A DNA stretch of 64,000 bases from an uncultured Candidatus Saccharibacteria bacterium (GCA_964387675.1 CAYLWL010000003.1:6436-70435), one strand, 5' to 3'. Positions 43,691 to 61,838 are shown, counted from the stretch's first letter. The notes: generated from the letters alone by a model not told the origin. Translations and numbers: made by a program.

Positions 43691-43706
43691 AGAAGCGGGT
43701 TCTTCG

Positions 43707-44662: not shown

Positions 44663-44706
44663 GTATCATCTTTACATTTCGATTTTTTAGTTTTACACTT
44701 ACCAAG

Positions 44707-45714: not shown

Positions 45715-45715
45715 A

Positions 45716-45783
45716 GCTTTGAGGTGTTAGCTGTTAGCTTTTAGGGGGAATACTAAAAGCTAAAACTTATAAGCTAAAAGCTA
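45716..45783. repeat. Family H repeat, second copy (inverted orientation)
   Basis: See the entry at 16375-16444. Confidence 0.4.
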
Positions 45784-46611: not shown

Positions 46612-46620
46612 AATAAAAGT

Positions 46621-47184
46621 ATGTCATCTGCGGGAGAAACATACCTGAAAGAGTTGGAGGCAGATTTGAAAGTCGTAGCCGGTAAGCTGGGCGAGGAACT
46701 TAAGATGATTCGCGGCAACCGGCCCTCGGTTGATCTGATCGAGAATATCAAAGTCAGCATCTATGAACAAGAGATGACCGTAAAACAACTCGGTTCCATT
46801 TCCGTTGTGCCGCCGCGAGGGATTCAAATAGCGGTGTGGGACAAAACCGCCGTGGGCGCGGTGATGAAGGCGATCGAAAACGCGAAAATCGGGCTCTCGG
46901 TTTCGAATGACGGGAATAATATTATTGCCAATCTTTCGGCCCTGGGCGATGAGCGGCGCGAGGAGCTCTCGAGGATTGTCAAAAAAACGAGCGAGGGTTT
47001 CAGGATTCAGGTGCGCGCCAGGCGCGATGACGCGATCAAAAAACTTCGCGACTCCGAGGGCGAAAAGGAGATAAGCGAGGACGAAGCATTCAAGGCAAAA
47101 GAGAAGATCCAGAAAGCGGTTGACGAGGCGAATAAGCAGATCGAGTCGGCAGTTGAGGGCAAACTGAGGGAACTCGCAGAGTAA
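46621..47184 (+). CDS. frr: Ribosome recycling factor
   Basis: 187 aa. RGNRPSVDLIENIKV...VPPRGIQIAVWDK. Confidence 0.85.
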   Translation: MSSAGETYLKELEADLKVVAGKLGEELKMIRGNRPSVDLIENIKVSIYEQEMTVKQLGSISVVPPRGIQIAVWDKTAVGAVMKAIENAKIGLSVSNDGNNIIANLSALGDERREELSRIVKKTSEGFRIQVRARRDDAIKKLRDSEGEKEISEDEAFKAKEKIQKAVDEANKQIESAVEGKLRELAE

Positions 47185-47337
47185 AAAGCAGCCATCTTTA
47201 TAGTACTATGCTATAGCATAGTACTATGATCTATCATAGCGCCTCGCAGTGAGGCCGTTGCGCTTTACAACTTTATAAAAAGTGTTCTCTTATTCTCTCA
47301 TTCGCGCGAATTAGCCGAAGAGAAAAAGAAAAATGAA

Positions 47338-47366
47338 AATCCGCCGCGGTGTTGTTGCGGCGGATT
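47338..47366 (-). terminator. Rho-independent terminator for the minus-strand small gene
   Basis: ATCCGCCGC-ggtgttgtt-GCGGCGGAT. The minus strand reads a T-rich tract after the stem. Confidence 0.45.
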
Positions 47367-47404
47367 GTGTACGATTTGTGCCGATTCGTTACAACCGAAC
47401 TTCG

Positions 47405-47668
47405 TTACAACCGAACCAAGTCGATGGCATGCAATTCAAGCCATCGCATCATTTCCTGAAGCTTGGACTCAGCTTTAGGGCCGAGCTTGATAGTAGGTGG
47501 AAGACGAGAAAATTGCTCGCTGTCAATTCCTAATTCTTCTAGTATTGCTGATCTGATCTCCCTACGATACGCGTCAAACTGGGATACGTATTGTGAATTG
47601 GGTCCAAAGAAATATATCATTTTTATCTGCATCTGAAGAGCAGAGCAAACATCGGCTAGAGTTGTCAT
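47405..47668 (-). CDS. Hypothetical small protein (87 aa), orphan
   Basis: Isolated minus-strand ORF with its own terminator. No recognisable motif. Confidence 0.3.
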   Translation of the reverse strand: MTTLADVCSALQMQIKMIYFFGPNSQYVSQFDAYRREIRSAILEELGIDSEQFSRLPPTIKLGPKAESKLQEMMRWLELHAIDLVRL

Positions 47669-47729
47669 CCAGCTTACCTCCTCGAGCTTATCTTGTGACT
47701 ATACGAAGAGTGGCATATAAGTTATACTT

Positions 47730-48770
47730 TTGTCAATGATTATTTTAATCGTCATCGTCGGTCTTTCACTTCTAATTCTCGGCCATGAGGCAGGGCACTT
47801 TTTTGTAGCCAAGCTGTTCAAGTTAAGAGTGGATGAGTTCGGTTTCGGTTTTCCGCCGCGGATGTTTGCCAAGAAGAAAGGCGAGACCGAATACAGTTTC
47901 AACTGGCTGCCGTTTGGAGGATTTGTGAGAATCGCGGGCGAAGACGGAGAGTTCGGTCTCAAAAACGGTGATGGATCAACCGATAAAAACCGTCTCTTCT
48001 TCGCGCAACCGGCCTGGAAAAAAGGCCTCATCATTTTGGCGGGCGTGGCCACGAATTTTGTGCTCGGATGGTTCCTGATCTCCGCGATTTTGATGGTCGG
48101 TATTCCCAAAGCCGTCATCATAAGCTCCGTTCAGCCGGATTCGCCTGCGGCTCGGATAGGGCTGCAACCGGCGGACATCGTGAGCAATTTTTCCACCGCC
48201 AAAGATTTTACTCGTTTCGTGAAGGAACACGCGGGGCAGACGGTGGATCTTGAAATAAAAAGAGGAGATCGGCATCTTACTCTTTCGGTCGTGCCCCGCA
48301 AAGAAACGAAGCCGGGAGAAGGGGCGGTCGGAGTGGTTTTGGTTGACGCCGGAGAAGATCGGCAGGGAATTCTCACCGCGGCCTGGGATGGCCTGCGTCG
48401 GGCGCTTATGATTTCCGGCCTTACGTTCCAATCGCTTTACGAACTGGTCAAAACACTGTTCTTCGACGGGTCGCTTCTTCCGGGAGTCGTGGGGCCGGTC
48501 GGAATTTTCTCGGTCGCCGCGGAAACCGGGAAAATCGGCTTGATCTATTTGGTGCAACTCATCAGTATCATTTCTCTCAATTTGGCCGTGATCAACCTTG
48601 TTCCATTTCCGGCGCTTGACGGCGGAAGGTTCTTGATGATCCTCATAGAGAAAATGAAGGGCTCGCCGATTTCGAGGAAAACCGAGGCGATCGTCAACGC
48701 GACGGGGTTTCTGTTTCTCATCGCCTTGATGATCGCGCTCACCGCGCGTGATGTGGGGAAGTTGTTCTAA
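47730..48770 (+). CDS. rseP: RIP metalloprotease RseP (M50 site-2 protease with PDZ domain)
   Basis: HEAGHFFVAK (HExxH) in TM1, a central PDZ-like region, and C-terminal NLVPFPALDGG. Confidence 0.8.
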   Translation: MSMIILIVIVGLSLLILGHEAGHFFVAKLFKLRVDEFGFGFPPRMFAKKKGETEYSFNWLPFGGFVRIAGEDGEFGLKNGDGSTDKNRLFFAQPAWKKGLIILAGVATNFVLGWFLISAILMVGIPKAVIISSVQPDSPAARIGLQPADIVSNFSTAKDFTRFVKEHAGQTVDLEIKRGDRHLTLSVVPRKETKPGEGAVGVVLVDAGEDRQGILTAAWDGLRRALMISGLTFQSLYELVKTLFFDGSLLPGVVGPVGIFSVAAETGKIGLIYLVQLISIISLNLAVINLVPFPALDGGRFLMILIEKMKGSPISRKTEAIVNATGFLFLIALMIALTARDVGKLF

Positions 48771-48775
48771 TCATT

Positions 48776-49984
48776 TTGAGAAGCGGGGTTCACATCTGGC
48801 AGCCGCACGATATTCAGCACCTTTTCAGTTTATCTGAACAATGGGCGACGAAAAATCGCCGTCCGATCGTAGTATTCGCTGATCAGTTCGACAATTGGCT
48901 GGGAATTCACAGCAACGTGGCGGCCCAGCTCGAAATCGAACTTGACGGTTTCTCCGGTCGGCGAGAAGGAGTATACTTTATAGCCACCGCCCAGCAAGAA
49001 CCGCGGGAATTCGGCGGATCCATGTTTCGTTCGGGAAGAATCGAAACCGAGGTTGCATTCAGCGATCCTGATCGGCGGCAACAAATCGAACTTTTAGAGG
49101 GGTTTTTACATCGATATCCGCATGATCCCGATATCGATATCGGCAACCTCATACACCTGCTTGACGTTCCGACACCTGCTGACCTTAAGGCCTTTGTTGA
49201 CGACGCATTTGTTTGTGCTCTGCAAGAGGTTGCGGTCGCGAAAGTGAAAAAAGAGAAGGGTTGGGCTTCGAAGGAAGCAAAAGTTACCGAGAACTTGCTT
49301 ATTGATGTGTTTCTTCCTCAAGTATTGGATCCGAAAACGGGGCACACGATGTCGCCCGAAGAAGAACGTGGTGTGGCCATCCACGAGATGGGCCATGTTG
49401 TTGTGGCAAGGGCGCTCGGTGTGCCTGCGCACTCCGTATCTTGCAGGCCGGGACTGGAATCGCTTGGATTGATGTATCAAGGAGATAGCGGTTTGGAAAG
49501 AAAAAATCCGTTCGTCGAGGAAAGGTATGCGATGATTTGCATCGGTCTGGGAAGTATCGAGGCCGAGACGCTTCTCGATGTGCCGCCCAATATAGGTTGT
49601 AATGCCGATCTCCACAATGCGGCGGATATGGCACAGCGTTTGATCGCGACCGGCGTCGACCCCCAAAGCCCGCTGGTTCCGAAATATGGAAGGTTGCACT
49701 TTCATCCGGGCGGCGACGTGGACGATGAAGGCAAGGTGGGTCCACCACAAATCTCCGAAGAGCTGAAAGGGGACCTTGAAAAAGCGGTGGTGCTGGTTTT
49801 GAGAGAAAGACAAGCGATGGCCCGCAACATCGTTGCTTTCTTCGGAAAGGAATTGATTGGCATGCTTGCCGACGCCTTGATTGCCAAACCGAACAAAGTG
49901 ATGCTGCAAAAAGAATTGGATCGGCTCCTCGAGCCGAAACTTAGTGAGTTCAGAAGTAAGCATAACATTGTCGAAATCCAATAA
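48776..49984 (+). CDS. N-terminally truncated FtsH-like protein: lacks TM region and Walker A, degenerate Walker B, intact M41 HEMGH motif
   Basis: PIVVFADQFD corresponds to the Walker B position (hhhhDEhD). ATAQQEPREF...RSGRIETEVAFSDPDRRQQIEL corresponds to the AAA C-terminal lid. HEMGHVVVA is the protease HExxH. Confidence 0.55.
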   Translation: MRSGVHIWQPHDIQHLFSLSEQWATKNRRPIVVFADQFDNWLGIHSNVAAQLEIELDGFSGRREGVYFIATAQQEPREFGGSMFRSGRIETEVAFSDPDRRQQIELLEGFLHRYPHDPDIDIGNLIHLLDVPTPADLKAFVDDAFVCALQEVAVAKVKKEKGWASKEAKVTENLLIDVFLPQVLDPKTGHTMSPEEERGVAIHEMGHVVVARALGVPAHSVSCRPGLESLGLMYQGDSGLERKNPFVEERYAMICIGLGSIEAETLLDVPPNIGCNADLHNAADMAQRLIATGVDPQSPLVPKYGRLHFHPGGDVDDEGKVGPPQISEELKGDLEKAVVLVLRERQAMARNIVAFFGKELIGMLADALIAKPNKVMLQKELDRLLEPKLSEFRSKHNIVEIQ

Positions 49985-50097
49985 CGCAGAAGCCGTTTCA
50001 TTCCTTGCTCCGACCGCGGTCGGAGCAATTTTATTCCATTTTTCGGGTGTGCATAACTCAACTTCCGAAGAGATCGAGACATTGTATAATAAATAGT

Positions 50098-51378
50098 ATG
50101 AGAAAAGTTTTCTCTCTCAAATTCATCCTCGTTGCCCCCTTTTTTCTCCTTGCGTTTTTCTATGCCTTTCATTTGGCGCGGGGATTCACCGGCCCCTCCT
50201 CAAGCGCCGGCGTCGGCAGCGGCGTCATTTCCAGCTTGAACGGCAATATCGGCATCGGGACGGCAACACCCGGCGCCTTGCTTCACCTTCTTGGCGCCTC
50301 TCCTTATCTCCGGCTCGATTGTACGTCCGCGAACTGCGGCGCGTTCGAGCTCCGCGTCGACACCTCGGGCGGATCCAAATACTTCGCGGTCTATGACGTC
50401 AATAATTCGACCCAGCCCTTTACTATTCTGAACAGCGGCAATATCGGCATTGGAACAACCACCCCCGCCTATCCCTTGAGCGTGGCCGGCGCCGTTTACT
50501 CCTCCTCCGGAGGATTCCGCTTTCCGGACGGCACCACGCAGACCACCGCCGCAAGCGGCGGCGCCACTGTGAACGCCTCAAATGTGACGGCCGGTGTTTT
50601 CGCCTCCGGCAACTTCTCCTTCCCGTCTTCCCTCGGCATCGCGACCACCACCCAGGTGAGCTTGCCCCAAGCCCTCTCGGTCTATGGCGGAGGATACTTC
50701 AGCGGCAACGTCGGCATCGGGACGACGGCGCCGGGAGCGAAGTTGCATATCTATGATCCCGTAGGAAGTAGTGCCGATGCGTGGCTTAAAATTGAATCGG
50801 ACAGCGCTAGTTCTGACGCGAGATTAGATTTTGATGGCGCTACTGGACGTGACGGAATAATACGATTTTTGCAGACAGGAACGATTGAGGCAAGAATCGA
50901 CTACGATAGTGCTACAGGAGATCTAATATTTTCTAAAGGATCAGCCGTTGGAAGCAACCTTGTTATTGATACATCCGGCAACGTCGGCATCGGGACGACA
51001 AGTCCGAGCTATAAGTTGCATGTTGCAGGAGATGTCGGCGCGACCGCTTTTTACTATACCTCCGACGCGCGCCTCAAGGCAGACATCCGCCCAACCGGCG
51101 GTCTGGAGATCATAAGCGGTTTGCGCGGGGTGACATTTTCGTGGAAGAATTCCGGAAAACGGAGCGCCGGTTTTATCGCCCAGGAGGTGGAGCAAGTTTT
51201 GCCCGAAGCGGTTTCTACTGATTCTGCGACAGGACTAAAGTCATTGAACTACGGCGCGCTCTCGGCGCCGATCGTGGAGGCGATCAAAGAGCTGGAGCGC
51301 GACTCGGAGGCGAAAGGTCAAAAGATCGCGGAGCTGGAACGAGAAATAGAGGAATTAAAACAGGTTCCGGGGAGATAA
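50098..51378 (+). CDS. Tail-fibre-like surface protein with GN(I/V)GIGTTxP repeats and C-terminal intramolecular-chaperone (peptidase S74) domain
   Basis: Signal/TM at the N-terminus. Four GNIGIGT motifs. The C-terminus DARLKADIRPTGGLEIISGLRGVTFSWKN...AGFIAQEVEQVLPEAV...LNYGAL plus a coiled coil is typical of the S74 self-cleaving chaperone. Confidence 0.55.
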   Translation: MRKVFSLKFILVAPFFLLAFFYAFHLARGFTGPSSSAGVGSGVISSLNGNIGIGTATPGALLHLLGASPYLRLDCTSANCGAFELRVDTSGGSKYFAVYDVNNSTQPFTILNSGNIGIGTTTPAYPLSVAGAVYSSSGGFRFPDGTTQTTAASGGATVNASNVTAGVFASGNFSFPSSLGIATTTQVSLPQALSVYGGGYFSGNVGIGTTAPGAKLHIYDPVGSSADAWLKIESDSASSDARLDFDGATGRDGIIRFLQTGTIEARIDYDSATGDLIFSKGSAVGSNLVIDTSGNVGIGTTSPSYKLHVAGDVGATAFYYTSDARLKADIRPTGGLEIISGLRGVTFSWKNSGKRSAGFIAQEVEQVLPEAVSTDSATGLKSLNYGALSAPIVEAIKELERDSEAKGQKIAELEREIEELKQVPGR

Positions 51379-51387
51379 TTTTCGTCA

Positions 51388-52452
51388 ATGAAGAGTGTTC
51401 GCAAGCTGAATTATTTGAATGTCGCAATACTGGTTGCGGCTTTTTCAATGTTTGGTTTCATCGTTCTGCGCGCGGCTACGACCTATCGGCTGAATACCGG
51501 CACAACTTCCGATATCACGGAATTTAACACCTGCAAGAAGGTTGCCAATTCCACCGGCAAAGACCTCTTTATTCCCACCAACTCCTCCGCGGAGTGGTCT
51601 TCTTTCTACAATAATATTCCTTCAGGCGTGACGATTTCCACCTGTGACGTTATCGTCACGTATAGCGGGGCGGCAAATGGCACTCACAACCTCTCTGCGA
51701 GCGGCTCGCTTGCTCTAACAACCCCGGGCAACTACACAATCTCCTTCGGTCGCAGTGCCAATATCCGGATTAGGGGCGTAGCTGGCGGCGGAGGCGGAGG
51801 TTCTGGAAGTTGGGTATATGGGGGCATTGGAGGCGGCGGTGGTGGTGGAGGTGGTGGAAGTGCCAATACAGACGGCGTGGTGGTGAGCGTTACTGCGACG
51901 AGTTACTCTGCGTCGGTTGGAGACGGTGGGGCGGGAGGTCCCGGTGGAAACGATGTGGAAACGAACGGTAGTGCGGGTGGCAATACCGCCTTCGGTTCAT
52001 GGTTGAGTCTGGCAGGCGGCGGTTATGGCAAAAGCCCGGGATCTGGTGGCGGAGGCGGGAGTTCTAACGGCGCCAACGGTGGTTGCGAGAGTCACGGCTC
52101 ATCGGGTATTACCGGCGGCGGCGGAGGTGGCGGTTCAAGCAGTAATTGCATAGGAGGTAATGGTGGGGCGGGATCCAGTCAGAATCCGGGCTGTGAGGCG
52201 AGAAGCGGCGGCAGCGGCACCAGGTCCTATTGCTCTTCCCCCGAAGCGCAGGGTGGTGTCACAGGTAATTGCGGCGGCGCAGGCGGCGGCGGTGGTGGGG
52301 GTGGCGTGAACTTGCTTGGTATAACCGGCAATCGAGGCGGCGGCGGTGGTGGCGGTGGCGCAAGCAAATGTGGAGGCAGTGGCCCTGGTGCAGCAGAAGG
52401 CGGCAGCGGCGGCAAAGGAAGTAGTGGCGCTCTGACAATTACGCTGGAATAA
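51388..52452 (+). CDS. Glycine-rich secreted protein
   Basis: N-terminal TM/signal, a ~120-aa globular region, then ~200 aa dominated by GGGGG/GGSG runs with scattered Cys. Confidence 0.45.
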   Translation: MKSVRKLNYLNVAILVAAFSMFGFIVLRAATTYRLNTGTTSDITEFNTCKKVANSTGKDLFIPTNSSAEWSSFYNNIPSGVTISTCDVIVTYSGAANGTHNLSASGSLALTTPGNYTISFGRSANIRIRGVAGGGGGGSGSWVYGGIGGGGGGGGGGSANTDGVVVSVTATSYSASVGDGGAGGPGGNDVETNGSAGGNTAFGSWLSLAGGGYGKSPGSGGGGGSSNGANGGCESHGSSGITGGGGGGGSSSNCIGGNGGAGSSQNPGCEARSGGSGTRSYCSSPEAQGGVTGNCGGAGGGGGGGGVNLLGITGNRGGGGGGGGASKCGGSGPGAAEGGSGGKGSSGALTITLE

Positions 52453-52819
52453 AAATGAAAACTCGCGGTCTCCAAGAACGGAGCATATTCGCGGCGTTGG
52501 GAATCCTCCTCTTCTTGACTTTCGCGTTCCTTTCTTTTTCCCTCTAATCCAATCTTTTCCGTTATAACATAATATTATATTATAATGGAAAAGAGAAAAA
52601 AGAGAACGAGAAAAAGAATAGAATAAGAGGGACGCATCCGGATGTTCACTGTCCGTTTGCTATAATAGAAGCATGTACCTTTCTGACACCCCTTCGACTC
52701 CGCTCCCTCGACAGAACTAGGGACAAGTCGGGGCAGGCCCTTCGATAGAGCTCGGGGCAAGCCCCTAGGCAATCGCATCTTCATACTATGAAGAAAAGAT
52801 CATCCACAACCATTCCTTC

Positions 52820-52840
52820 GAGAGAGAGAGAGAGAGAGAG
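52820..52840. repeat. (GA)10 dinucleotide microsatellite 8 nt upstream of the likely start codon of the giant fibre gene
   Basis: GAGAGAGAGAGAGAGAGAGAG read directly from the sequence. Confidence 0.9.
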
Positions 52841-52847
52841 TAACACC

Positions 52848-55800
52848 ATGCCCCGACTCCGCTCTCTACAACTCGTTTACCTCGCCTCCTTCCTCCTCTC
52901 TTCATTCCTCTTTGCCCCTCCACTCTTGGCCGCCCCTCCTTCCTCCCCGTATACCCCCGGAGAGACCCTGAATCCCACCTGCTCCCCCGGAGACGCGAAT
53001 TGCACGGTCGTCGCTCCCCCCGCGGGAACCGGCTCCGCGGGACTCCTGACCTACTGGAGCGCCTCCTCCACCGTCTCATCCTCCCTCTCCCTCTTCTGGG
53101 ACAACCCCAACATACGCCTCGGCATCGGCACCTCCCAGCCCTCCTCCACCTTTCACATCATCGCGGGAACGACGGGCGCGACCACCCTGCAACTGATGGG
53201 ACTCCCCAACCAGACCGGGAATCTTCTCACGGTCGGATCATCCTCCGGACAACGCTATTTCACCATCTCGTCCCTCGGACTTGCATCGTCTACCGAGTTT
53301 CGCTCTCCGAGTTCGACGATCGATACCCTCTTCCTTACCTCGGCGTCCTCCACCAACCTCTCCCTCTCCGGCTACGGCCTCTTTCCCACGCTCCTTGCCC
53401 AGAACGCCGTGGGACTCGGCTCTCTTTCCACTTCCACCTCCCTCGTTTTCATCCAGGGGACGCAGGTGGCGTCAACCACACTCAACCTCCGAGGCACAAC
53501 CAACCAAACCGCCAATCTCCTCACGATCGCGAGTTCAACGGGAATCAACTTCTTCACGATTGGCCCAACTGGCCTCGCTTCCTCCACCGAGTTCAGGGCC
53601 AACTCGTCCACCATCGCCTCGCTCTACGATTTCAACGGCAACAAGTACGCCACCTCGAGCGCCTTCACCGCTGGCGTTGACACCCAGCTCTTATTTGGCC
53701 AACTCGGAGGAGGAGCAACCTCGAGCATTGCTTTCACGATCACCACCTCCACCTCCCAACTCCTCTTTTCCGGCTCCAATGTCTCCATCGCTCCGGTCGG
53801 AACCTCCACCTCCCTCGTCTTCCTGCAGGGAAGCCAGATAACATCCACCACGCTCAATATCTTCGGCGCCGCGGCCCAGACCGCGTCTCTCCTCTCCATC
53901 TCCTCCAGCACCGGCATCCCTCTTTTCAACATCAATGCCATAGGCCAAGTAGCCATCGCCACCTCTACCTACCCCTCATCGAGCACCCTGCTGACCATCG
54001 CCTCCTCAAGCCAGATATTCAATATCTCCGCGGGAGGCAACATCATGATTGGGACCTCGACCTCTCCCAATGCCGCGCTTCTGCAGATCGCGACGACCAC
54101 CAATATCTTCACGATCTTGAGCAACGGGAGAGTGGGAATCGGAACCTCGACGCCGGGTTCCGCCCTTGACGTGAAAGGCACCTTGCGTCTGTCGGGTTCC
54201 GCGTCGGGATATGTGGGATTCGCTCCAGCCGCCGCGGCGGGAGCAACCACCTATACCCTCCCTTCCGCCGACGGCTCATCGGGACAAGTCCTTACCACCG
54301 ACGGCTCGGGGACTTTGTCCTGGACGACGAAAGTAGAGGGCACCTCCCAGGACTTCAAAGGACTTTCCTTGAGAACCCATCCCAACGCGAACATCGCCAC
54401 CACCACGGTCTATCTTGACCACGCAGACGAGATCGTGATGGATACCGGGAACCGGGTGGCAACCTGGGACGACCTGTCGGCTGACATCACCGTATCAGGA
54501 GCCGGAGGACTGGATACCGGTTCTGAAGCCGCTTCCACTTGGTATGAGATTTATGCGATACGAAAATCATCTGATGGCACAAAGAATCTCTTGCTTCATA
54601 GGGCCAAGGATTATTTTTTGGATGAGGATTTTTCAACTGGCGATGATCAGTCACAAGGGATTCGGCGCACGACTAATAGTGTTACTTCTGTTGCTCAACA
54701 GTTTGAGGTTGATACTTCCGGGCTTGTTGAATTTGTCGACGTATATCTTCTTCGCGCCGGATCGGTAAGCGGACGGTTGTGGGCCGAGCTCTATGCAGAT
54801 AGCGGAGGAGCGCCAACGGGTTCAGCGCTTGCCACTTCTGACAAAATCGACGCCTCACTTATATCGACTAGTGCCCAATGGATACGTTTGCCGTTCCGTT
54901 CGCCTGTTACATTGAGTGCCACGCCGACAATTTACCATCTTGTGCTGACAGGCGACTGGACACAAAGTGATACGGTAACTATCAGCTGGCGCGCAGACAG
55001 CACATCGCCGACCTATGCTCGCGGATCATTTGAGCGTAAAGAATCTGGCAGTTGGGTAGAATATTCCGATATTGATGTGTTGTTCAAAATCTATGTCACC
55101 CGCAACGACACCTCGGTCACCATGCCGACCGGCTATGACCAGAAAGCGAAGGTGGGGTATGTATATAACGATAGCGGGAGTAACTTTAGCCCATTCGTGG
55201 CCAATGATCGGCGCGTAACCTATCAAACTACGTTCAATACGGGCAGCATCACGGCGACGATTATGACGTTAACCGACGTGTCATCATCACTGCCACCAGT
55301 TGCCGTCAGCGACGTGTTCGGCACGGCAGAGAACAGCGCGGTCAACGATTGGCTGCGTATTCTGGGCGTCCCAGACGGCTATTCGGCGAATGGCTATCCA
55401 ATTTCTGTCCCGACTGCAAATGCCACAGTATTTGCGGGAGGTATCTCAACTGAATATCAAGCGTTATATTTTCAGGTTAGTTCTGGAACTGGAATATTCC
55501 GACTGCGAGGCTACACTTGGGGCTCCACCGGCGGCGCGGACCTGGCTGAAGAATATCTGGTGGATGACGAAAGCATCAACGCCGGAGACATCGTGTCTCT
55601 GACCTCTTTTGGTACCAACTATGTCGAGAGAGCCGCCGCCTCCTCTTCATACCCGGTCCTCGGCATCGTCTCCACCAAGCCGGGCATAGTCCTCAAGGAC
55701 TGGTCATACAGCCCCCGGAATACGAGGAATGTGGCTCTCACCGGCCGCGTCCCGGTCAAGGTTACCGAAGAGAACGGCCCGATCAAGACAGGGGATCGCC

Positions 55801-56435
55801 TCACCCTCTCGGCAACGACCCCCGGCTATGCGATGAAGATGACCGAGCCGGGCCAATCAATAGGTATTGCTATGGAATCGTCGGAGAACAAAGACCCCGA
55901 CGCTACGGTCCCGACGCAAGGATCGGGACAGGTCGGGACGGGCAAAATCCTCGCCTTCATCAATTTGACCTATTGGATACCGGATATATCTGCATCAACA
56001 TCCACCGATGCTTCCGCTTCCACCTCAACTGTTGCATCAACCGACTTCTCACTCGACGGCCTGATGAAATACATCGTGAACAAACTCAAAAATGTTCTGG
56101 AGATCGTCTTCGAGAAAGGACTCCTCAAGGTGGCGCATCTGATTACGGATCTTGTGGAGACGAAAAAGGTTGTGACGGAAGAAGTGGTGACCGAAAAACT
56201 GGAATTGAAAGACGCGGCAACGGGCGGGGTGTATTGCGTCAAGATGCTGAACGGTCAGTTGGCGAGCGTGTCGGGAGGATGCGGGTCAGACGCGCAATCT
56301 TCAACCTCGACGGCAGAATCCGATTCCACTTCCAGCTCTGCCACGAGTTCCGTTTCGGACTCCGACAATTCCGATTCTGCCGCAAGTTCAACCGATTCGA
56401 CGGCCGATACTAACAGCACTTCGACTGAGCCGTAA
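52848..56435 (+). CDS. Giant (~1195 aa) surface fibre-like protein with Ser/Thr-rich repeats and acidic Ser-rich C-terminus
   Basis: The start at MPRLRSLQLVYLASFLLSSFLFAPPLLAAP (signal peptide) is preferred over the upstream ATG at 52788. It has repeated ...LLTIASSTGINFFTIGPTGLASSTEFR... modules, motifs shared with the 50098 protein, and a C-terminus of SDSTSSSATSSVSDSD. Confidence 0.55.
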   Translation: MPRLRSLQLVYLASFLLSSFLFAPPLLAAPPSSPYTPGETLNPTCSPGDANCTVVAPPAGTGSAGLLTYWSASSTVSSSLSLFWDNPNIRLGIGTSQPSSTFHIIAGTTGATTLQLMGLPNQTGNLLTVGSSSGQRYFTISSLGLASSTEFRSPSSTIDTLFLTSASSTNLSLSGYGLFPTLLAQNAVGLGSLSTSTSLVFIQGTQVASTTLNLRGTTNQTANLLTIASSTGINFFTIGPTGLASSTEFRANSSTIASLYDFNGNKYATSSAFTAGVDTQLLFGQLGGGATSSIAFTITTSTSQLLFSGSNVSIAPVGTSTSLVFLQGSQITSTTLNIFGAAAQTASLLSISSSTGIPLFNINAIGQVAIATSTYPSSSTLLTIASSSQIFNISAGGNIMIGTSTSPNAALLQIATTTNIFTILSNGRVGIGTSTPGSALDVKGTLRLSGSASGYVGFAPAAAAGATTYTLPSADGSSGQVLTTDGSGTLSWTTKVEGTSQDFKGLSLRTHPNANIATTTVYLDHADEIVMDTGNRVATWDDLSADITVSGAGGLDTGSEAASTWYEIYAIRKSSDGTKNLLLHRAKDYFLDEDFSTGDDQSQGIRRTTNSVTSVAQQFEVDTSGLVEFVDVYLLRAGSVSGRLWAELYADSGGAPTGSALATSDKIDASLISTSAQWIRLPFRSPVTLSATPTIYHLVLTGDWTQSDTVTISWRADSTSPTYARGSFERKESGSWVEYSDIDVLFKIYVTRNDTSVTMPTGYDQKAKVGYVYNDSGSNFSPFVANDRRVTYQTTFNTGSITATIMTLTDVSSSLPPVAVSDVFGTAENSAVNDWLRILGVPDGYSANGYPISVPTANATVFAGGISTEYQALYFQVSSGTGIFRLRGYTWGSTGGADLAEEYLVDDESINAGDIVSLTSFGTNYVERAAASSSYPVLGIVSTKPGIVLKDWSYSPRNTRNVALTGRVPVKVTEENGPIKTGDRLTLSATTPGYAMKMTEPGQSIGIAMESSENKDPDATVPTQGSGQVGTGKILAFINLTYWIPDISASTSTDASASTSTVASTDFSLDGLMKYIVNKLKNVLEIVFEKGLLKVAHLITDLVETKKVVTEEVVTEKLELKDAATGGVYCVKMLNGQLASVSGGCGSDAQSSTSTAESDSTSSSATSSVSDSDNSDSAASSTDSTADTNSTSTEP

Positions 56436-56512: not shown

Positions 56513-57790
56513 ATGCATCGAGAAAACTTATATAAAAACCTCCCCGATTCTCCGGGCGTATATCTTATGAAGGATGCGTGCGGGGCCGTGATCTATGTCG
56601 GCAAGGCCGGAAATTTGAAAAGACGGGTATCGAGTTACTTCGCGAGAGCCCACGATTTGCGGATCGAGCGATTGGTAAACGAAATTAAAAAGATCGACTG
56701 TCAGAAAACGGACACCGCGCTCGAGGCCTTGATTTTAGAGTCCAAGCTCATCAAACGGCTTAACCCCAAGTTCAATGTCAAAGAAAAAGACGACAAAAGT
56801 TTTTTGTACGTCGCGATTACCAAAGAAAAGTTTCCGCGCGTGCTTTTGGCGAGAGGGTCAAGGGTCAAGAGTCAGGGGTCAAGAATTGATGATTGGTATG
56901 GACCCTTTACTTCGGCCGGCAGTATCCGCGAGGCATTGAAGATTTTGCGCCGGATTTTCCCGTGGAGCAACCACATAGTGACAAGGGACATGAGACAAGC
57001 GACAAGGGACGCCACCAAGCCATGTTTCGATTACGAGATCGGCCTTTGTCCGGGAACCTGCATCGGCGCGATAAGCAGCAAAGATTATTTGAAAAATATC
57101 AACCGGCTCAAATTGTTTTTTGCGGGCAAGAAGCTTCGGGTACTGGGGTCTTTGCAAAAGGAAATGAAAGCGGCGAGCAAGCGCCTGGAATTCGAGAAGG
57201 CCGAAAAACTCCGCCGCCAGATATTCGCCCTTCAACATATTCGCGACACGGCGCTGATTAATGAAGAGCCGTTTCCACATACTACCTACTACCTACCACA
57301 TACTTTTCGTATTGAGGGCTACGACATCTCCAACATCTCCGGCGCTTCCGCCGTCGGCGCGATGGTGGTGTTCAGGGGCGATCATCCGCGGAAAGACGAG
57401 TATCGGAAGTTCAAAATAAAAACAATCCACGGTTCTCATGATGTCGGCATGCTCCGCGAAGTTCTCGGGCGTCGATTTGGAAATTGGAAATTGGAAATTG
57501 GAAATTCGAAGAGATGGCCTCTGCCCGACCTCATTCTTGTCGACGGCGGCATTCCCCAGGTGAACGCCGCGCGATCGGTGCTTCGCGAATATGGCCTTGC
57601 CATCCCGATTGTGGGCATAGCCAAGGGGCCAACGAGAAAAAGGAATGACGTTATCGGGATTATTCCAGCGGGCATTAGTCGAAAAACGCTTATCCGCGTG
57701 CGTGACGAAGCGCACCGCTTCGCCATCGGTTATCACAAAAAACTCCGCGGCAGAGAATTCATTCCTCGAACTAACGAACGGTCACTTTGA
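56513..57790 (+). CDS. uvrC: Excinuclease ABC subunit C, short form lacking C-terminal (HhH)2 domain, with several repeat-derived in-frame insertions
   Basis: GIY-YIG (GVYLMKDACGAVIYVGKAGNLKRRVSSY), a UVR domain (LEFEKAEKLRRQIFALQHI), and an RNase H-like endonuclease region. Insertions are at 56850-56885, 56975-57015, 57278-57303 and 57479-57506. Confidence 0.8.
   Translation: MHRENLYKNLPDSPGVYLMKDACGAVIYVGKAGNLKRRVSSYFARAHDLRIERLVNEIKKIDCQKTDTALEALILESKLIKRLNPKFNVKEKDDKSFLYVAITKEKFPRVLLARGSRVKSQGSRIDDWYGPFTSAGSIREALKILRRIFPWSNHIVTRDMRQATRDATKPCFDYEIGLCPGTCIGAISSKDYLKNINRLKLFFAGKKLRVLGSLQKEMKAASKRLEFEKAEKLRRQIFALQHIRDTALINEEPFPHTTYYLPHTFRIEGYDISNISGASAVGAMVVFRGDHPRKDEYRKFKIKTIHGSHDVGMLREVLGRRFGNWKLEIGNSKRWPLPDLILVDGGIPQVNAARSVLREYGLAIPIVGIAKGPTRKRNDVIGIIPAGISRKTLIRVRDEAHRFAIGYHKKLRGREFIPRTNERSL
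57479..57506 (+). repeat. (GGAAATT)4 heptanucleotide tandem repeat inside uvrC coding sequence
   Basis: Read directly from the sequence. It encodes GNWKLEIGNS. The unit length is not a multiple of 3. Confidence 0.9.
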
Positions 57791-58571
57791 GCTTGAGAGA
57801 AGAATAGACGTCCGAGTAAAAGTCGTATATCCCCGGGAAAAGAGACGATGTGTCGAAGGTATACGATGCGCCCGGTTCTACCACGAACGGACTGTAGCTC
57901 CCGACAATGATTCGGTGCGTGACCGAGTCGTTGTTTATGAATGTGATGTTGTCTTTCTGCCGCACATTGAGCATGGAGGGCGAGAAAACGTAATTTTTGA
58001 TCGGGACAGTGTATTCTCCGATGGGGGCCTCGCTTTTATAGATGAGCGAGAACACGCCGCTCGATGCTTCCGGAATCTGGCTCCTGTCGAACTTGATTTT
58101 TATGATATAGTCGCCGTGCTCCACGTTTTTCTTTTGGGAGCCGTACCGGCTTACGGCAACATCTTGTCCGTTCCACGCGAATGACGTTTGGTGAGCGCCG
58201 GTTTCGGAATTGATCCATCCCGTGACCGACTTGTCGGATGCTTTTACGAGATAGATAGAGCCCGGCAAGCCGCTTTCTTTATTCCAGCTAATTGTATTCG
58301 TTTCTCCAATCACCCATTTTTCGGACACGGTTGGGGATACGAGAGAAACGGACTTCGACGTTTGCGGCGCGGGGGCGGGCGATTTGGGCGCGGGCGGCGT
58401 CGGCGCGGCGGCGGATGTCTGCGTTTGTTCCTGGGGAGCCGGCGGGTTTTGAGCGGCGGGGTATTCTTGCGAAGGCGCTTCTTTGGAGTATCGTGTCAAA
58501 AAACTGACCACGCCCAAAGCCAGTACCACTATAATGAGCACGAGCACGATGAGGGGTTTTGTCCTGAACAT
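57771..58571 (-). CDS. Membrane-anchored protein with Pro/Ala-rich linker and C-terminal cupredoxin-like beta domain
   Basis: TM LIVLVLIIVVLALGVVSFL, a linker PPAPQEQTQTSAAAPTPPAPKSPAPAPQ, and a C-terminal ~100 aa beta-rich region. Its 3' end overlaps the uvrC 3' end by 20 nt (convergent). Confidence 0.45.
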   Translation of the reverse strand: MFRTKPLIVLVLIIVVLALGVVSFLTRYSKEAPSQEYPAAQNPPAPQEQTQTSAAAPTPPAPKSPAPAPQTSKSVSLVSPTVSEKWVIGETNTISWNKESGLPGSIYLVKASDKSVTGWINSETGAHQTSFAWNGQDVAVSRYGSQKKNVEHGDYIIKIKFDRSQIPEASSGVFSLIYKSEAPIGEYTVPIKNYVFSPSMLNVRQKDNITFINNDSVTHRIIVGSYSPFVVEPGASYTFDTSSLFPGIYDFYSDVYSSLKLKVTVR

Positions 58572-61400: not shown

Positions 61401-61838
61401 ATGGCCACGCGGCATCTTATAAGAACAGTTATCCTCCAATCCCTCTATGAATGGGATTTTTACGCCCAAAAAAGAGATATTGTGGCGATTTTGGACAGAA
61501 ATCTTTCCGAATACGCCCCCGGGATCGACGAGCCGGAATTCGCCTGGAAGATTTTGAACGGCATCGCCGAGCGCATCAAGGACCTGGACAACGTCATCAC
61601 GAAAGCCGCTCCGGAGTGGCCGCTCGACAAAATCGCCGTTATCGACAGAAACATTTTGCGCATCGGCCTTTACGAACTTTTGTACGCCGATCCGAACGAA
61701 GTGCCTCCAAAAGTTGCCATCAACGAAGCGATAGAACTTGCCAAAAACTATGGCGGCCCGAACGCCGCGCGATTCATCAACGGAGTTTTGGGAACGATTT
61801 ATCGTGAACTCGAGGCAAGCAAAGGAATAACTAAGTGA
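61401..61838 (+). CDS. nusB: Transcription antitermination factor NusB
   Basis: [19 protein letters not shown]...[17 protein letters not shown]...[24 protein letters not shown]. Confidence 0.85.

What the first reader, a model, noticed from the sequence alone, without database searches (positions are those of the whole stretch)
50098..56435. Three-gene surface-fibre cluster: S74-chaperone tail-fibre-like protein, Gly-rich protein and a ~1200-aa fibre sharing sequence modules
Gene 1 (50098-51378) has GN(I/V)GIGTTxP repeats and a C-terminal domain (…GFIAQEVEQVLPEAV…) matching the self-cleaving intramolecular chaperone of phage tail spikes and endosialidases, followed by a coiled coil. Gene 2 is Gly-rich. 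Gene 3 is a 1195-aa S/T-rich fibre whose internal modules (LLTIASSTGINFFTIGPTGLASSTEFR, IGIGTSTP) echo gene 1. There are no capsid, terminase or integrase genes nearby, so this looks like a cellular appendage rather than a prophage. One possibility is an attachment organelle for an episymbiotic lifestyle, assembled with a phage-derived chaperone.
Basis: partly seen in the sequence, partly recalled or inferred. Interest (0 to 1): 0.65.

Follow-up and report, generated by a model that had tools for sequence, protein, structure and literature searches.

The report
Phage-tail-fibre-like surface fibres in CPR bacterium
A tiny, uncultivated "candidate phyla radiation" bacterium carries, among housekeeping genes, three exported proteins built from phage tail-fibre parts (two with self-cleaving folding domains, one tipped with a phage receptor-binding domain), which are good candidates for how such bacteria grip other cells but are a variant of a fibre type already described in the predator Bdellovibrio.

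Summary
Window 50098-56435 holds three same-strand ORFs in a Candidatus Liptonbacteria (CPR) chromosome, flanked by RseP and an FtsH-like gene on one side and UvrC on the other. No phage capsid, terminase or integrase gene was found in the ORFs scanned across the 64 kb. Each protein has one N-terminal export or anchor segment.

- **g1** is a short fibre with four GN[IV]GIGTxxP motifs and a canonical Peptidase_S74 chaperone (Pfam E=2e-16; Ser322/Lys327 in SDARLK). Its best solved relative is the Bdellovibrio MAT fibre Bd2133.
- **g2** is Gly-rich (PF21722). Its N-domain follows an S74 fibre gene in 8 further loci directly and in 2 at 0.85-1.4 kb, so g1 and g2 form a conserved pair.
- **g3** appears to be a separate unit. 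A paralogue with a mosaic, swapped tip lies at another locus in a 99.5%-identical MAG. Its aa ~497-893 are homologous to the last tail gene of uncultivated, high-GC siphovirus-like phages. Its aa ~895-1045 fold like the phi29 gp12 (Peptidase_G2) auto-chaperone, with an invariant DxAE.

Best reading: Sec-exported, self-maturing adhesive fibres, a CPR variant of MAT-type chimeric fibres. A role in host attachment is plausible but untested. The "three-gene unit" and "shared modules" claims are only partly right.

The parts
50005..50028 (+). Terminator-like hairpin (10-bp stem followed by a T run) after the FtsH-like gene. It sets g1 off as the start of a new transcription unit. An extended -10-like TGTATAAT lies at about 50083-50090.
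50098..51378 (+). g1: 426-aa short tail-fibre-like protein. Annotated in NCBI as 'tail fiber domain-containing protein', Candidatus Liptonbacteria.
50098..50181 (+). g1 N-terminal export or anchor segment (MRKVFSLKFILVAPFFLLAFFYAFHLAR). It is the only hydrophobic segment in the protein.
50242..51006 (+). g1 shaft with four GN[IV]GIGTxxP capping motifs (aa 49, 114, 203, 294). aa 91-181 align to the Bdellovibrio MAT fibre Bd2133 (8OND) at E=1e-17.
51061..51375 (+). g1 Peptidase_S74 intramolecular chaperone (aa 322-426). The predicted scissile and catalytic Ser322 and the Lys327 lie in YYT-SDARLK. The terminal helix (aa ~385-422) belongs to the chaperone.
   Evidence: mechanism from PMC4690869
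51388..52452 (+). g2: 354-aa Gly-rich exported protein, starting 9 nt after g1.
51505..51651 (+). g2 conserved N-domain (C.K..N.sG..yF[IV]PT....EW..F...C). In 8 of 11 further loci an S74 fibre gene lies directly upstream, and in 2 more one lies within 0.85-1.4 kb.
51718..52419 (+). g2 Gly_rich_2 domain (PF21722). It has 14 Gly-rich segments, including G6 to G10 runs.
52551..52594 (.). AT-rich palindrome in the g2-g3 spacer. It is also present at 36017-36056 and upstream of the g3 paralogue in L001. Homology with the paralogue locus begins at 52530.
52848..56435 (+). g3: 1195-aa long fibre (alternative start at 52788).
52848..52931 (+). g3 signal-peptide-like N-terminus (MPRLRSLQLVYLASFLLSSFLFAPPLLA).
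53025..54125 (+). g3 S/T-rich shaft with five copies of an LLxIxSS...F.I...G...IGTST-type module (aa 126, 224, 348, 381, 411).
54093..54329 (+). g3 79-aa 'collar' motif (GRVGIGTSTPGSALDVKGTLRLSG...YTLPSADGSSGQVLTTDGSGTLSWTT). It is 72-86% identical in fibre proteins of Bdellovibrio, Bacteroidota and other CPR bacteria.
54336..55526 (+). g3 tip domain (aa ~497-893). The model is all-beta with pLDDT ~97. It is homologous (mostly 40-56% identity) to about 400-600-aa proteins that end at the same position; the two traced are the last tail gene of uncultivated siphovirus-like phages. The most variable part between paralogues is aa ~600-790.
55530..55982 (+). g3 C-terminal auto-chaperone-like module (aa ~895-1045) with the fold of the phi29 gp12 C-terminal fragment (Peptidase_G2 type). 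The motif is G-A-D898-L-A900-E901.
55983..56432 (+). g3 C-terminal tail: an S/T linker, a predicted helix (LDGLMKYIVNKLKNVLEIVFEKGLLKV), a two-Cys hairpin and an acidic S/T/D-rich end. The helix and Cys part is conserved in CPR homologues.

Best explanation
These are chromosomal genes of a Candidatus Liptonbacteria (CPR/Patescibacteria) cell. They encode Sec-exported, probably trimeric surface fibres assembled from phage tail-fibre modules. There appear to be two units.

**Unit 1 (g1 + g2).** g1 is exported and folds outside the membrane into a short beta-helical fibre. Folding is nucleated from its C-terminal S74 intramolecular chaperone, which then removes itself by Ser322/Lys327 autoproteolysis. 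g2 is the conserved partner encoded 9 nt downstream. It has an export signal, a conserved ~45-aa N-domain and a variable C-domain, which here is a polyglycine-type Gly-rich domain. It most likely works with the fibre, either as a docking or anchor protein or as a tip adhesin in the manner of phage gp38.

**Unit 2 (g3).** g3 is a long fibre that is N-terminally anchored or secreted. It consists of an S/T-rich shaft, a highly conserved collar and a distal receptor-binding-type domain of phage origin. Behind these sits a second kind of C-terminal auto-chaperone (phi29 gp12/Peptidase_G2 type, DxAE motif), which is predicted to assist trimer folding and probably to be cleaved off. Paralogues with exchanged tips exist in the same species.

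**Most likely role.** The fibres probably serve specific adhesion to another cell's surface, such as a host or partner bacterium. This would be analogous to the Bdellovibrio MAT fibres.

**Shown:** the domain identities, the export signals, the non-prophage context, the conservation of the g1-g2 pair, the phage homology of the tip and the mosaic paralogue.

**Inferred:** trimerisation, autocleavage, surface display, the g1-g2 physical interaction and the adhesion target.
For: **Cellular context.** The neighbours are aaRS, MurA, MreB, HolB, Frr, RseP and an FtsH-like gene upstream, then UvrC and others downstream. The window also holds a ribosomal-protein operon. No phage structural or integration family was found in the ORFs scanned across 64 kb. 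The same arrangement is present at 99.5% nucleotide identity in MAG GCA_016204365.1.

**Export.** Each of g1, g2 and g3 has exactly one strongly hydrophobic segment, placed right after a K/R-rich start. The same holds for several CPR homologues: L007, L009, P0002, P0270, P0304 and P0313, and P0123 further in. Phage versions of the tip (P0133, P0151) have no such segment.

**g1.**
- It matches PF13884 at E=2e-16.
- The SDARLK dyad has the same Ser/+5 Lys spacing as T5 pb1 Ser1264/Lys1269 and fits the SDxxxK motif of the MAT fibres.
- The best PDB sequence hits are Bd2133 (8OND, E=1e-17), S16 gp37 (6F45, E=1e-5), 8OJN and MYRF.

**MAT precedent.** The Bdellovibrio fibres are surface-located. Thirteen carry S74 and eight carry other tips. 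S74 cleavage was shown experimentally, and one tip binds prey glycan (PMC10769870).

**g1-g2 pair.**
- The g2 N-domain directly follows an S74 fibre gene in Jorgensenbacteria (L020, E=1e-10) and Falkowbacteria (L064).
- It also does so in 6 of 9 metagenome loci. Two more have S74 within 1.4 kb, and one has none.
- The C-terminal domains of these partner proteins differ from one another.
- In L065, a Gly_rich_2 domain replaces S74 on a g1-like shaft, next to pilin, cupredoxin-like, signal peptidase and S74 fibre genes.

**g3 tip.**
- A search of 1.84 billion representatives gave 10,066 hits. Hundreds are about 400-600-aa proteins that end exactly at g3 aa ~891.
- The two that were traced sit last in siphovirus-like tail modules.
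- There are 42 IMG/VR loci.
- The AF2 model has pLDDT ~97. It matches phage baseplate and tail-tip proteins in the PDB and tail-fibre proteins in BFVD.
- In genomes, full-length relatives were found only in CPR MAGs or a MAG labelled only 'bacterium' (Saccharibacteria, Nomurabacteria). Where the whole gene is on the contig they are >1000-aa proteins, and the two loci checked lie among housekeeping genes.

**g3 chaperone.**
- 11 of 40 homologues match PF11962 Peptidase_G2.
- A profile of the module hits the GADYAE region of PBCV-1 P22.
- The AF2 model (pLDDT 86) has its best PDB fold matches to the phi29 gp12 C-terminal fragment 3GQH (TM 0.56) and to 3SUC.
- D898, A900 and E901 are conserved in 34/34, 33/34 and 33/34 homologues.

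**Mosaic paralogue.** Nucleotide identity along the gene runs 91-98%, then 63-87%, then 93-98%, then ~50-60%.
Against: - Nothing here is experimental. Surface display, trimerisation and cleavage are inferred from homology.
- g3 itself does not reach any Pfam family. Its G2 assignment rests on transitive homology and on a monomer model with a moderate Foldseek score (E=3e-4, TM ~0.56). The same fold also occurs in non-proteolytic phage cement and decoration proteins.
- From my own memory, not checked here: phi29 gp12 autocleavage was reported to involve ATP, which would not be available outside the cell.
- g3 carries about 150 further residues after the chaperone module. This is atypical for a terminal chaperone.
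- No similarity to the conserved N-terminal domain of Bdellovibrio MATs was detected. This could be tested only against one Bdellovibrio protein, P0037.
- g2 has no detectable similarity to gp38.
- The tip is only ~45-55% identical to the phage proteins, so there is no sign of recent exchange. The hosts of those phages are unknown.
- No Liptonbacteria have been cultured, so an episymbiotic lifestyle is itself an assumption for this organism.
Confidence: 0.62

Rival explanations
1. Remnant of a prophage or tailocin tail-fibre module. On this reading the genes are decaying or domesticated virion genes with no cellular surface role.
For: Every module has phage relatives. g1 matches S74 and 41 PHROG families, nearly all tail families. 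The g3 tip is the last tail gene in phage contigs. The g3 chaperone module folds like phi29 gp12. The region has somewhat higher GC (0.56-0.59) than the window as a whole (0.51).
Against: No other phage gene was found in the ORFs scanned across 64 kb. All three proteins, and their CPR homologues, carry N-terminal export or anchor segments that the phage versions lack. The ORFs are intact and are conserved at 99.5% in a second MAG. Homologous long fibres sit alone among housekeeping genes in Saccharibacteria and Nomurabacteria. The raised GC is probably explained at least partly by the Gly, Ala, Ser and Thr content.
Confidence: 0.07
2. Exported fibres whose job is not host-cell recognition. Possibilities include a structural cell-coat or S-layer-like component, adhesion to abiotic particles or biofilm matrix, CPR-to-CPR aggregation, or a phage decoy that soaks up phages or blocks their receptors.
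For: The same evidence for export and fibre architecture applies as for the best explanation. No ligand is known. S/T-rich shafts and acidic tails are common in matrix and coat proteins. S74 fibre homologues occur in many non-episymbiotic phyla, including Bacteroidia, Planctomycetes and KSB1.
Against: The g3 tip belongs to a family that, in the two phage contigs traced, occupies the receptor-binding position of the tail. The tip is the part that varies between paralogues, as expected for specificity determinants. The closest characterised family, the MAT fibres, binds prey glycans. The g2-like partners have variable C-domains.
Confidence: 0.22
3. g3 is a diversity-generating-retroelement (DGR) target, or the cluster belongs to a trimeric autotransporter or type IV pilus machine.
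For: An Avd-like gene (PF05635) lies at 61020-61370. JGI labels several homologues 'trimeric autotransporter adhesin'. S74 fibre genes lie next to pilin and PilD genes in L064 and L065. A pilin-like protein in the window (3145-3963) carries the fibre capping motif.
Against: No ORF of RT size in the window is left without a scan or a non-RT assignment, and no template/variable repeat pair involves g1-g3. Pfam finds no YadA-type anchor domain in g1-g3, and to my knowledge CPR cells lack an outer membrane. g1-g3 lack the G|FTLIE prepilin motif.
Confidence: 0.04

Closest known systems
Bdellovibrio bacteriovorus MAT (mosaic adhesive trimer) fibres (Caulton et al. 2024, PMC10769870)
   Same: - Both are cellular, not viral, tail-fibre-like proteins with a signal sequence.
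- Both have beta-helical shafts with the GxxGIGTxxPxxxL capping loops. g1 aligns to Bd2133 at E=1e-17.
- Both families split into S74-terminated members (SDxxxK) and members with other tips.
- Both show mosaic or 'tip-swapped' paralogues.
- A Bdellovibrio fibre protein (P0037) shares the g3 collar motif at 72-75% identity.
   Different: - The organism is a CPR bacterium; to my knowledge these lack an outer membrane.
- The MAT-specific ~130-aa N-terminal domain was not detected.
- The g3 tip is a phage siphovirus-type distal tail domain followed by a G2-type (phi29 gp12-like) auto-chaperone. Neither is among the tip types reported for the MAT fibres (beta-sandwiches, TNF-like, C-type lectin).
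- g1 is much shorter (426 aa against about 1000 aa) and has a conserved downstream partner gene (g2).
Peptidase_S74 intramolecular chaperone of phage tailspikes and fibres (K1F endosialidase, T5 pb1, S16 gp37; also eukaryotic MYRF)
   Same: g1 matches PF13884 above the Pfam threshold. It has the Ser-x4-Lys dyad preceded by Thr, and the C-terminal helix. The domain sits at the C-terminus, directly after the last capping motif.
   Different: The protein has an export signal and is encoded in a cellular chromosome. Cleavage has not been demonstrated.
phi29 gp12 pre-neck appendage C-terminal auto-chaperone (Peptidase_G2, PF11962; PDB 3GQH, 3SUC)
   Same: The best PDB fold matches of g3 aa 891-1048 are to this domain. 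Eleven of 40 homologues match PF11962. The D-x-A-E motif is invariant. The module sits after the receptor-binding part of a fibre. In phi29 the mature protein ends at residue 691, so the C-terminal domain is removed.
   Different: g3 itself is below Pfam detection. It is followed by about 150 extra residues. The preceding domain is a multi-beta-sandwich tip rather than a beta-helix tailspike. The setting is extracellular.
T2/S16-type phage long tail fibre tip: gp37 (S74 chaperone) plus gp38 adhesin (polyglycine-II sandwich)
   Same: The gene order is the same: an S74-terminated fibre followed immediately by a Gly-rich protein. S16 gp37 has PF13884, and gp38 starts 27 nt downstream. g1 aligns to S16 gp37. 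The g2 family has a conserved N-domain and a variable C-domain, as gp38 does. It also has G6 to G10 runs, like the G8 run of gp38.
   Different: There is no detectable sequence similarity between g2 and gp38 or PF05268/PF21721. g2 has an export signal. Its fold was not tested.

Membership tests
Peptidase_S74 intramolecular chaperone (g1) | Match to PF13884 above the gathering threshold | tested here: met
   60.3 bits against a cut-off of 22, E=2.2e-16, aa 322-372
Peptidase_S74 intramolecular chaperone (g1) | Catalytic Ser with Lys five residues downstream (SDxxxK) | tested here: met
   YYT-S322-DARL-K327. The spacing is the same as T5 Ser1264/Lys1269 and fits the MAT SDxxxK motif.
Peptidase_S74 intramolecular chaperone (g1) | Autoproteolytic release after trimer folding | not testable with these tools
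   Needs expression of wild type against S322A or K327A.
Bdellovibrio MAT fibre family | N-terminal signal sequence on a tail-fibre-like protein encoded outside a prophage | tested here: met
Bdellovibrio MAT fibre family | Shaft homologous to MAT beta-helix with capping loops | tested here: met
   g1 against Bd2133 (8OND) at E=1e-17, with the GNVGIGT..P..KLHV motifs aligned. The g3 collar is 72-75% identical to a Bdellovibrio fibre protein.
Bdellovibrio MAT fibre family | Conserved ~130-aa beta-rich N-terminal domain after the signal peptide | tested here: inconclusive
   No N-terminal similarity between g1 or g3 and the one Bdellovibrio protein available, P0037. Bona fide MAT N-domains were not available for comparison.
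Bdellovibrio MAT fibre family | Trimeric fibre on the cell surface that binds another cell's glycans | not testable with these tools
   No multimer prediction or experiment was possible.
Peptidase_G2 / phi29 gp12 auto-chaperone (g3 aa 895-1045) | Match to PF11962 | tested here: not met
   g3 and its C-terminal fragment give no Pfam hit. Eleven of 40 homologues do (best E=9e-8), so homology is transitive only.
Peptidase_G2 / phi29 gp12 auto-chaperone (g3 aa 895-1045) | Fold of the gp12 C-terminal domain | tested here: met
   AF2 model with pLDDT 86. The top Foldseek PDB hit is 3GQH_A (E=3e-4, TM 0.56/0.54), and 3SUC gives TM 0.57.
Peptidase_G2 / phi29 gp12 auto-chaperone (g3 aa 895-1045) | Conserved acidic D-x-A-E motif at the N-terminal edge of the domain. 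That this is the catalytic Asp/Glu site is recalled from memory. | tested here: met
   D898 34/34, A900 33/34, E901 33/34. The same GADYAE motif is aligned in PBCV-1 P22.
Prophage or tailocin tail module | Adjacent tube, tape-measure, baseplate, capsid, terminase or integrase genes | tested here: not met
   None in the ORFs scanned across the 64 kb. In contrast, phage loci L003 and L005 carry them.
gp38-type tail-fibre adhesin (g2) | Match to PF05268 GP38 or PF21721 Gp38_N, or similarity to S16 gp38 | tested here: not met
   Only the gene order and the Gly-rich style agree.
Trimeric autotransporter adhesin | C-terminal YadA-type membrane anchor | tested here: not met
   No such Pfam domain in g1-g3.
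DGR variable protein | Nearby reverse transcriptase and a template/variable repeat pair | tested here: not met
   No ORF of RT size is left without a scan or a non-RT assignment, and no repeat involves g1-g3. Only an Avd-like gene at 61020-61370.

The most novel reading that the evidence does not exclude
CPR bacteria may recognise their host cells with membrane-anchored fibres whose tips are receptor-binding domains taken from phages that infect those same hosts. The closest phage carriers of the g3 tip are 60-68% GC, unlike CPR genomes at 30-56%. If this is right, tip-to-phage homology could be used to predict the unknown hosts of uncultivated CPR lineages.

In addition, the g1-g2 pair may be a cellular counterpart of the phage gp37-gp38 system. 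In that system a self-cleaving S74 fibre is capped, after chaperone release, by an exchangeable adhesin; here that would be a polyglycine-II-type domain.
Probability: 0.22. Interest if true: 0.8.

Novelty: new variant of a known kind. Interest (0 to 1): 0.55.

Why it matters
How ultrasmall CPR/Patescibacteria find and hold on to their hosts is largely open. Type IV pili, a T4SS and unspecified 'multiple adhesins' have been implicated in Saccharibacteria (PMC10633639, PMC12206443).

This locus points to a concrete and widespread candidate class: exported fibres built from phage tail-fibre parts, which need no cytoplasmic assembly factor because each carries its own self-removing chaperone. The variable, phage-derived tips and the conserved fibre-partner gene pair give testable specificity determinants. 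They may also offer a bioinformatic handle on CPR host range.

It also extends the Bdellovibrio MAT concept of cellular use of phage receptor-binding fibres to a very different lifestyle and cell envelope. It adds a second chaperone type (G2) to the repertoire used by cells.

Tried and rejected
1. **Prophage flank search.** Pfam scans of about 40 window ORFs found no phage structural or integration genes.
2. **DGR.** Self-blastn found no TR/VR pair, and there is no RT.
3. **Direct family assignment of g3.** Pfam, PHROGs, NCBIfam and PDB sequence searches all came back empty.
4. **First structure job on the g3 C-terminal module.** The first AF2 job left g3 aa 894-1110 unmodelled (pLDDT <50). 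A second job with a dedicated alignment was needed.
5. **GenBank phages.** tblastn of the g3 tip, of g2 and of the phage neighbours' large tail proteins found nothing useful. The phage relatives are known only from metagenomes.
6. **g2 against S16 gp38.** BLASTP, and Pfam GP38 and Gp38_N, gave no similarity. Local phmmer with the g2 Gly-rich domain did not even recover the L065 Gly_rich_2 protein.
   - An alignment-based genome scan failed with too diverse an alignment and was repeated with a narrower one.
   - The Xiang et al. 2009 phi29 gp12 paper is not held. The catalytic Asp/Glu and ATP statements are therefore from memory.
8. **Literature.** Searches for CPR plus tail fibre, S74 or endosialidase found no paper describing such fibres in CPR. 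PF21722 is mentioned nowhere.
9. **Rfam.** It found only two tRNAs in the window.

Full report
**1. Observation.**

The region 50098-56435 contains three same-strand ORFs:
- g1: 50098-51378, 426 aa.
- g2: 51388-52452, 354 aa.
- g3: 52848-56435, 1195 aa. An upstream ATG at 52788 would add 20 residues, but the closest homologue is called from MPRLRS.

g1 has four GN[IV]GIGTxxP motifs at aa 49, 114, 203 and 294. It matches Pfam Peptidase_S74 (PF13884) at aa 322-372 with E=2.2e-16, and 41 PHROG families, nearly all tail families. g2 is 29.7% Gly and matches PF21722 Gly_rich_2 at E=1e-6. g3 is S/T-rich and matches nothing in Pfam, PHROGs, NCBIfam or PDB sequences.

The 'shared modules' between g1 and g3 reduce to the neighbourhood of one capping motif...F(T)IL(N)SG(N/R)(I/V)GIGT(T/S)TP..., 37 aa, pairwise E=3e-5.

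**2. Organism and context.**

g1 is 100% identical to an NCBI protein named 'MAG: tail fiber domain-containing protein [Candidatus Liptonbacteria bacterium]'. Contig JACQKV010000017 of MAG GCA_016204365.1 is 99.5% identical to window 40098-54116. The window is therefore CPR/Patescibacteria chromosome.

The gene order around the cluster is: class II aaRS, MurA, MreB, HolB, Frr, RseP, a truncated FtsH-like gene, then g1-g2-g3, then UvrC, a cupredoxin-like protein and an FAD oxidase. Further away lie a ribosomal-protein block, LysRS/AspRS-type aaRS, RecO, asparaginase, RNase III, a pilin-like protein and several large secreted proteins. No capsid, terminase, portal, tube, tape-measure or integrase family was found in the ORFs scanned across the 64 kb. 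The ribosomal-protein block and a few short ORFs were not scanned.

A strong terminator-like hairpin (50005-50028) precedes g1. g1 and g2 are 9 nt apart. g2 and g3 are separated by 335-395 nt that contain an AT-rich palindrome (52551-52594) and a TATAAT-like box.

**3. Export signals.**

Each of the three proteins has exactly one strongly hydrophobic 19-mer window. In each it lies directly after a K/R-rich N-terminus: MRKVFSLKFILVAPFFLLAFFYAFHLA, MKSVRKLNYLNVAILVAAFSMFGFIVLRA and MPRLRSLQLVYLASFLLSSFLFAPPLLA.

The same is true of several CPR homologues of g3: Saccharibacteria L007, Nomurabacteria L009 and P0002, with P0123 carrying its segment further in. It is also true of g1 homologues P0270, P0304 and P0313. 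The phage-encoded versions of the g3 tip (P0133, P0151) have only a short hydrophilic N-terminus.

This is the most direct sequence evidence that these are exported or membrane-anchored cellular proteins rather than virion parts.

**4. g1.**

The C-terminal domain reads ...GDVGATAFYYT-S322-DARL-K327-ADIRP...GFIAQEVEQVLPEAV...LNYGALSAPIVEAIKELER...IAELEREIEELKQ.

Ser322 and Lys327 have the i/i+5 spacing of the S74 dyad. Examples are T5 pb1 Ser1264/Lys1269 with a preceding Thr (PMC4690869) and the SDxxxK motif of Bdellovibrio MATs (PMC10769870). The terminal helix is part of the S74 chaperone, as shown by the alignment to S16 gp37 (6F45) through aa 422.

The best solved-structure relative of g1 is not a phage protein. 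It is Bd2133 (8OND, E=1e-17), followed by S16 gp37, the Bdellovibrio entry 8OJN and MYRF.

More than 2000 homologues exist at E<1e-10. They occur in CPR bacteria (Jorgensen-, Falkow-, Lipton-bacteria, Minisyncoccia), Woesearchaeota, KSB1, Planctomycetes and Bacteroidia. The nearest non-self homologue is only 36% identical.

**5. g2 and the g1-g2 pair.**

g2 consists of an export segment, a ~45-aa domain with two Cys (TCKKVANSTGKDLFIPTNSSAEWSSFYNNIPSGVTISTC) and a Gly-rich domain. The Gly-rich domain has 14 Gly-rich segments and G6 to G10 runs, and aa 125-354 are 41.7% Gly.

The N-domain recurs directly downstream of an S74 fibre gene in several places:
- In a Jorgensenbacteria genome (L020, 3-nt gap, pairwise E=1e-10).
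- In a Falkowbacteria genome (L064).
- In a metagenome scan, 9 loci carry the domain. Six have an S74 domain ending no more than ~180 nt upstream of the matched motif on the same strand. Two have one 0.85-1.4 kb upstream. One has none.

The C-terminal parts of these partners differ from one another. L020, for example, is Cys-rich with a MopE-like motif.

In L065, a Gly_rich_2 domain sits on a g1-like shaft (37% identity to g1 aa 7-242). That gene lies beside a pilin-like gene, a cupredoxin-like gene, a signal peptidase I gene and the closest g1 homologue.

So g1-g2 is a conserved two-gene module with a constant N-domain and an exchangeable C-domain in the second protein.

A phage precedent exists for this order. 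S16 gp37 carries PF13884 and is followed 27 nt later by gp38. gp38 is a monomeric adhesin with an N-terminal fibre-attachment domain and a polyglycine-II sandwich whose variable loops set host range (PMC6851490). This remains an analogy.

**6. g3 anatomy.**

(a) Signal-like N-terminus.

(b) S/T-rich shaft, aa ~60-426, with five repeats.

(c) A 79-aa collar, aa 416-494. It is 72-86% identical in hundreds of fibre proteins from Bacteroidota, Bdellovibrio and CPR bacteria.

(d) Tip, aa ~497-893.
- An exhaustive phmmer search gave 10,066 hits at E<1e-3 and 310 at E<1e-30. Hundreds are proteins of about 400-600 aa that end exactly at g3 aa ~891.
- The two that were traced are the last gene of siphovirus-like tail modules: head-closure, tail-completion, tube, a ~1000-aa protein at the tape-measure position, Dit-like and Tal-like proteins, then this protein. 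One contig also has an integrase.
- A further 42 IMG/VR contigs carry it. GenBank phages do not.
- The AF2 model is all-beta with pLDDT ~97. Its best fold matches are phi812 baseplate proteins, the Bxb1 tail tip and the Douge central fibre in the PDB, and tail-collar, tail-fibre and minor tail proteins in BFVD (47 hits at E<1e-3).

(e) Auto-chaperone-like module, aa ~895-1045.
- Homologues share the consensus G[AS]D[LVIFY]AE.Y...GD.V...G[IV][IV]ST.PG...VALxGRVPVKV..ENG.I..GD.L..S..PGYAMK...IGKALE, and many end a few residues later.
- Eleven of 40 match PF11962 'Peptidase_G2, IMC autoproteolytic cleavage domain'.
- A profile of the module hits the GADYAE region of PBCV-1 P22.
- A dedicated AF2 model (pLDDT 86, pTM 0.82) has its best PDB matches to the phi29 gp12 C-terminal fragment (3GQH, TM 0.56) and to pre-mature gp12 (3SUC). 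These are followed by phage cement proteins of the same fold.
- D898, A900 and E901 are essentially invariant.
- Mature phi29 gp12* ends at residue 691, so this domain is removed in the phage (PMC6542822). That Asp/Glu of a D-x-A-E motif are the catalytic residues, and that ATP is involved, is my recollection of Xiang et al. 2009. That paper is not held.

(f) A ~150-aa tail with a helix, a two-Cys hairpin and an acidic S/T/D-rich end. It is conserved in CPR homologues.

**7. Distribution and evolution of g3.**

Among 185,579 species-representative genomes, near-full-length relatives of the tip were found only in CPR MAGs or a MAG labelled only 'bacterium'. These are two Saccharibacteria, one Nomurabacteria and one unnamed 'bacterium'. 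Where the whole gene lies on the contig, the proteins are 1096-1343 aa. The two loci checked lie among RF, FtsE-like, GatA and cupredoxin-like genes. More distant partial matches occur in diverse MAGs.

The phage contigs with the closest short versions are 60-68% GC. CPR loci are 30-56% GC. This suggests, indirectly, that those phages infect high-GC non-CPR bacteria.

MAG GCA_016204365.1 breaks its assembly inside g3. It also holds a second g3-like gene (P0001) at a different locus, behind TIM, SIMPL and a UvrA-like gene. Nucleotide identity between the two copies is mosaic:
- 91-98% over the first 450 nt.
- 63-87% over nt ~500-1060.
- 93-98% over nt 1060-1660, covering collar and tip base.
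- ~50-60% over the tip core (aa ~600-790).

This is the 'tip-swapping' pattern described for the MAT fibres.

**8. Interpretation.**

The best-supported reading is that these are exported, self-maturing fibres, that is, a CPR variant of the MAT-type chimeric fibres. Intramolecular chaperones suit proteins that must fold after Sec export without cytoplasmic helpers.

g1+g2 and g3 are best treated as two units that happen to be adjacent here. Adhesion to another cell is the most likely function, for three reasons. The tip family occupies the receptor-binding position in the phage contigs traced. The variable parts are the distal ones. The nearest characterised family binds prey glycans. No test of binding, localisation, trimerisation or cleavage was possible.

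Rivals:
- A prophage remnant is unlikely, given the export signals, the context, and the solitary homologues in other CPR genomes.
- Non-host adhesion, or a coat or decoy role, cannot be excluded.
- DGR, autotransporter and pilus membership failed their defining tests.

**9. Novelty.**

g1 is already annotated automatically as a tail-fibre-domain protein, and cellular S74 fibres are known from Bdellovibrio. Four things appear new relative to the literature I could search:
- The description of such fibres in CPR bacteria.
- The conserved S74-fibre/partner gene pair.
- A long fibre that combines a siphophage distal-tail domain with a G2-type auto-chaperone and a conserved tail.
- Its mosaic paralogy.

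I rate it a new variant of a known kind, of moderate interest. It would rise in interest if the tips prove to report host specificity.

Noticed in passing
window 19565-19668, 24526-24625, 25527-25630, 33555-33662, 61832-61902; also 20209-20324/23994-24109; and 20982-21052, 21331-21408, 22231-22308, 27112-27190, 27742-27826, 28738-28820, 29238-29320: There are at least three families of 70-115-nt intergenic repeats between ribosomal-protein and neighbouring genes. Two copies are 100% identical over 100 nt. One member (19560-19672) folds into a long near-perfect hairpin (-34 kcal/mol, z=-4.9) with UACUAAU-type sub-repeats. There is no Rfam match.
   Followed up: partly
window 36017-36056 and 52551-52594; L001 9680-9723: The same ~40-nt AT-rich perfect palindrome occurs in the g2-g3 spacer, at a second intergenic site, and upstream of the g3 paralogue in the related MAG.
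   Followed up: partly
window 3145-3963 and 3954-4562: A type IV prepilin-like protein (RRG|FTLIELL) has a C-terminus that carries the tail-fibre capping motif SGSNIGIGVVSPNALLQVSG. It is followed by a cupredoxin-like protein. The pair is 48-50% identical to a pair in L065 that lies next to Gly_rich_2, signal peptidase I and S74 fibre genes. Cupredoxin_1-like genes also flank S74 or long-fibre genes in L009, L020 and L021, and at window 57771-58571.
   Followed up: partly
window 54093-54329 (g3 aa 416-494): A 79-aa collar motif is 72-86% identical between CPR, Bdellovibrio and Bacteroidota fibre proteins. This is far more conserved than the rest of these proteins, and it is unexplained.
   Followed up: partly
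window 61020-61370: An Avd-like four-helix-bundle gene (PF05635 23S_rRNA_IVP, E=9e-26) has no reverse transcriptase or template repeat nearby. A similar gene (bAvd) lies at the edge of the Jorgensenbacteria fibre locus L020.
   Followed up: partly
window 48776-49984: This is a truncated FtsH-like protein of 402 aa. The HEMGH zinc site is retained, the AAA match is only weak, and I saw no N-terminal membrane segment. It lies directly downstream of RseP and upstream of g1.
   Followed up: no
window 5957-8491: An 844-aa secreted protein has many repeats of a Cys-containing ~45-aa unit (...GGC.....C..YC.....H..EC..FA...G...) and Gly/Gln/Pro-rich low-complexity stretches. It has no Pfam or NCBIfam match.
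   Followed up: no
window 52454-52546: A 30-codon ORF (MKTRGLQERSIFAALGILLFLTFAFLSFSL) starts 2 nt after the g2 stop and would encode a single transmembrane peptide. It may be a chance ORF.
   Followed up: no
L008 1050-4952 and 4928-5878 (Saccharibacteria MAG): The g3-like fibre is split here. The tip ends one ORF, and the G2-type chaperone module begins an overlapping 316-aa ORF (P0232). This is either a frameshift or assembly error, or a naturally separate chaperone.
   Followed up: no
L002 (protein P0003, 1312 aa): A metagenomic relative of g3 carries the same tip and G2-type module, followed by a weak Peptidase_S74 match and a second partial copy of the G2-type module. Both chaperone types therefore seem to occur in one protein.
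   Followed up: no
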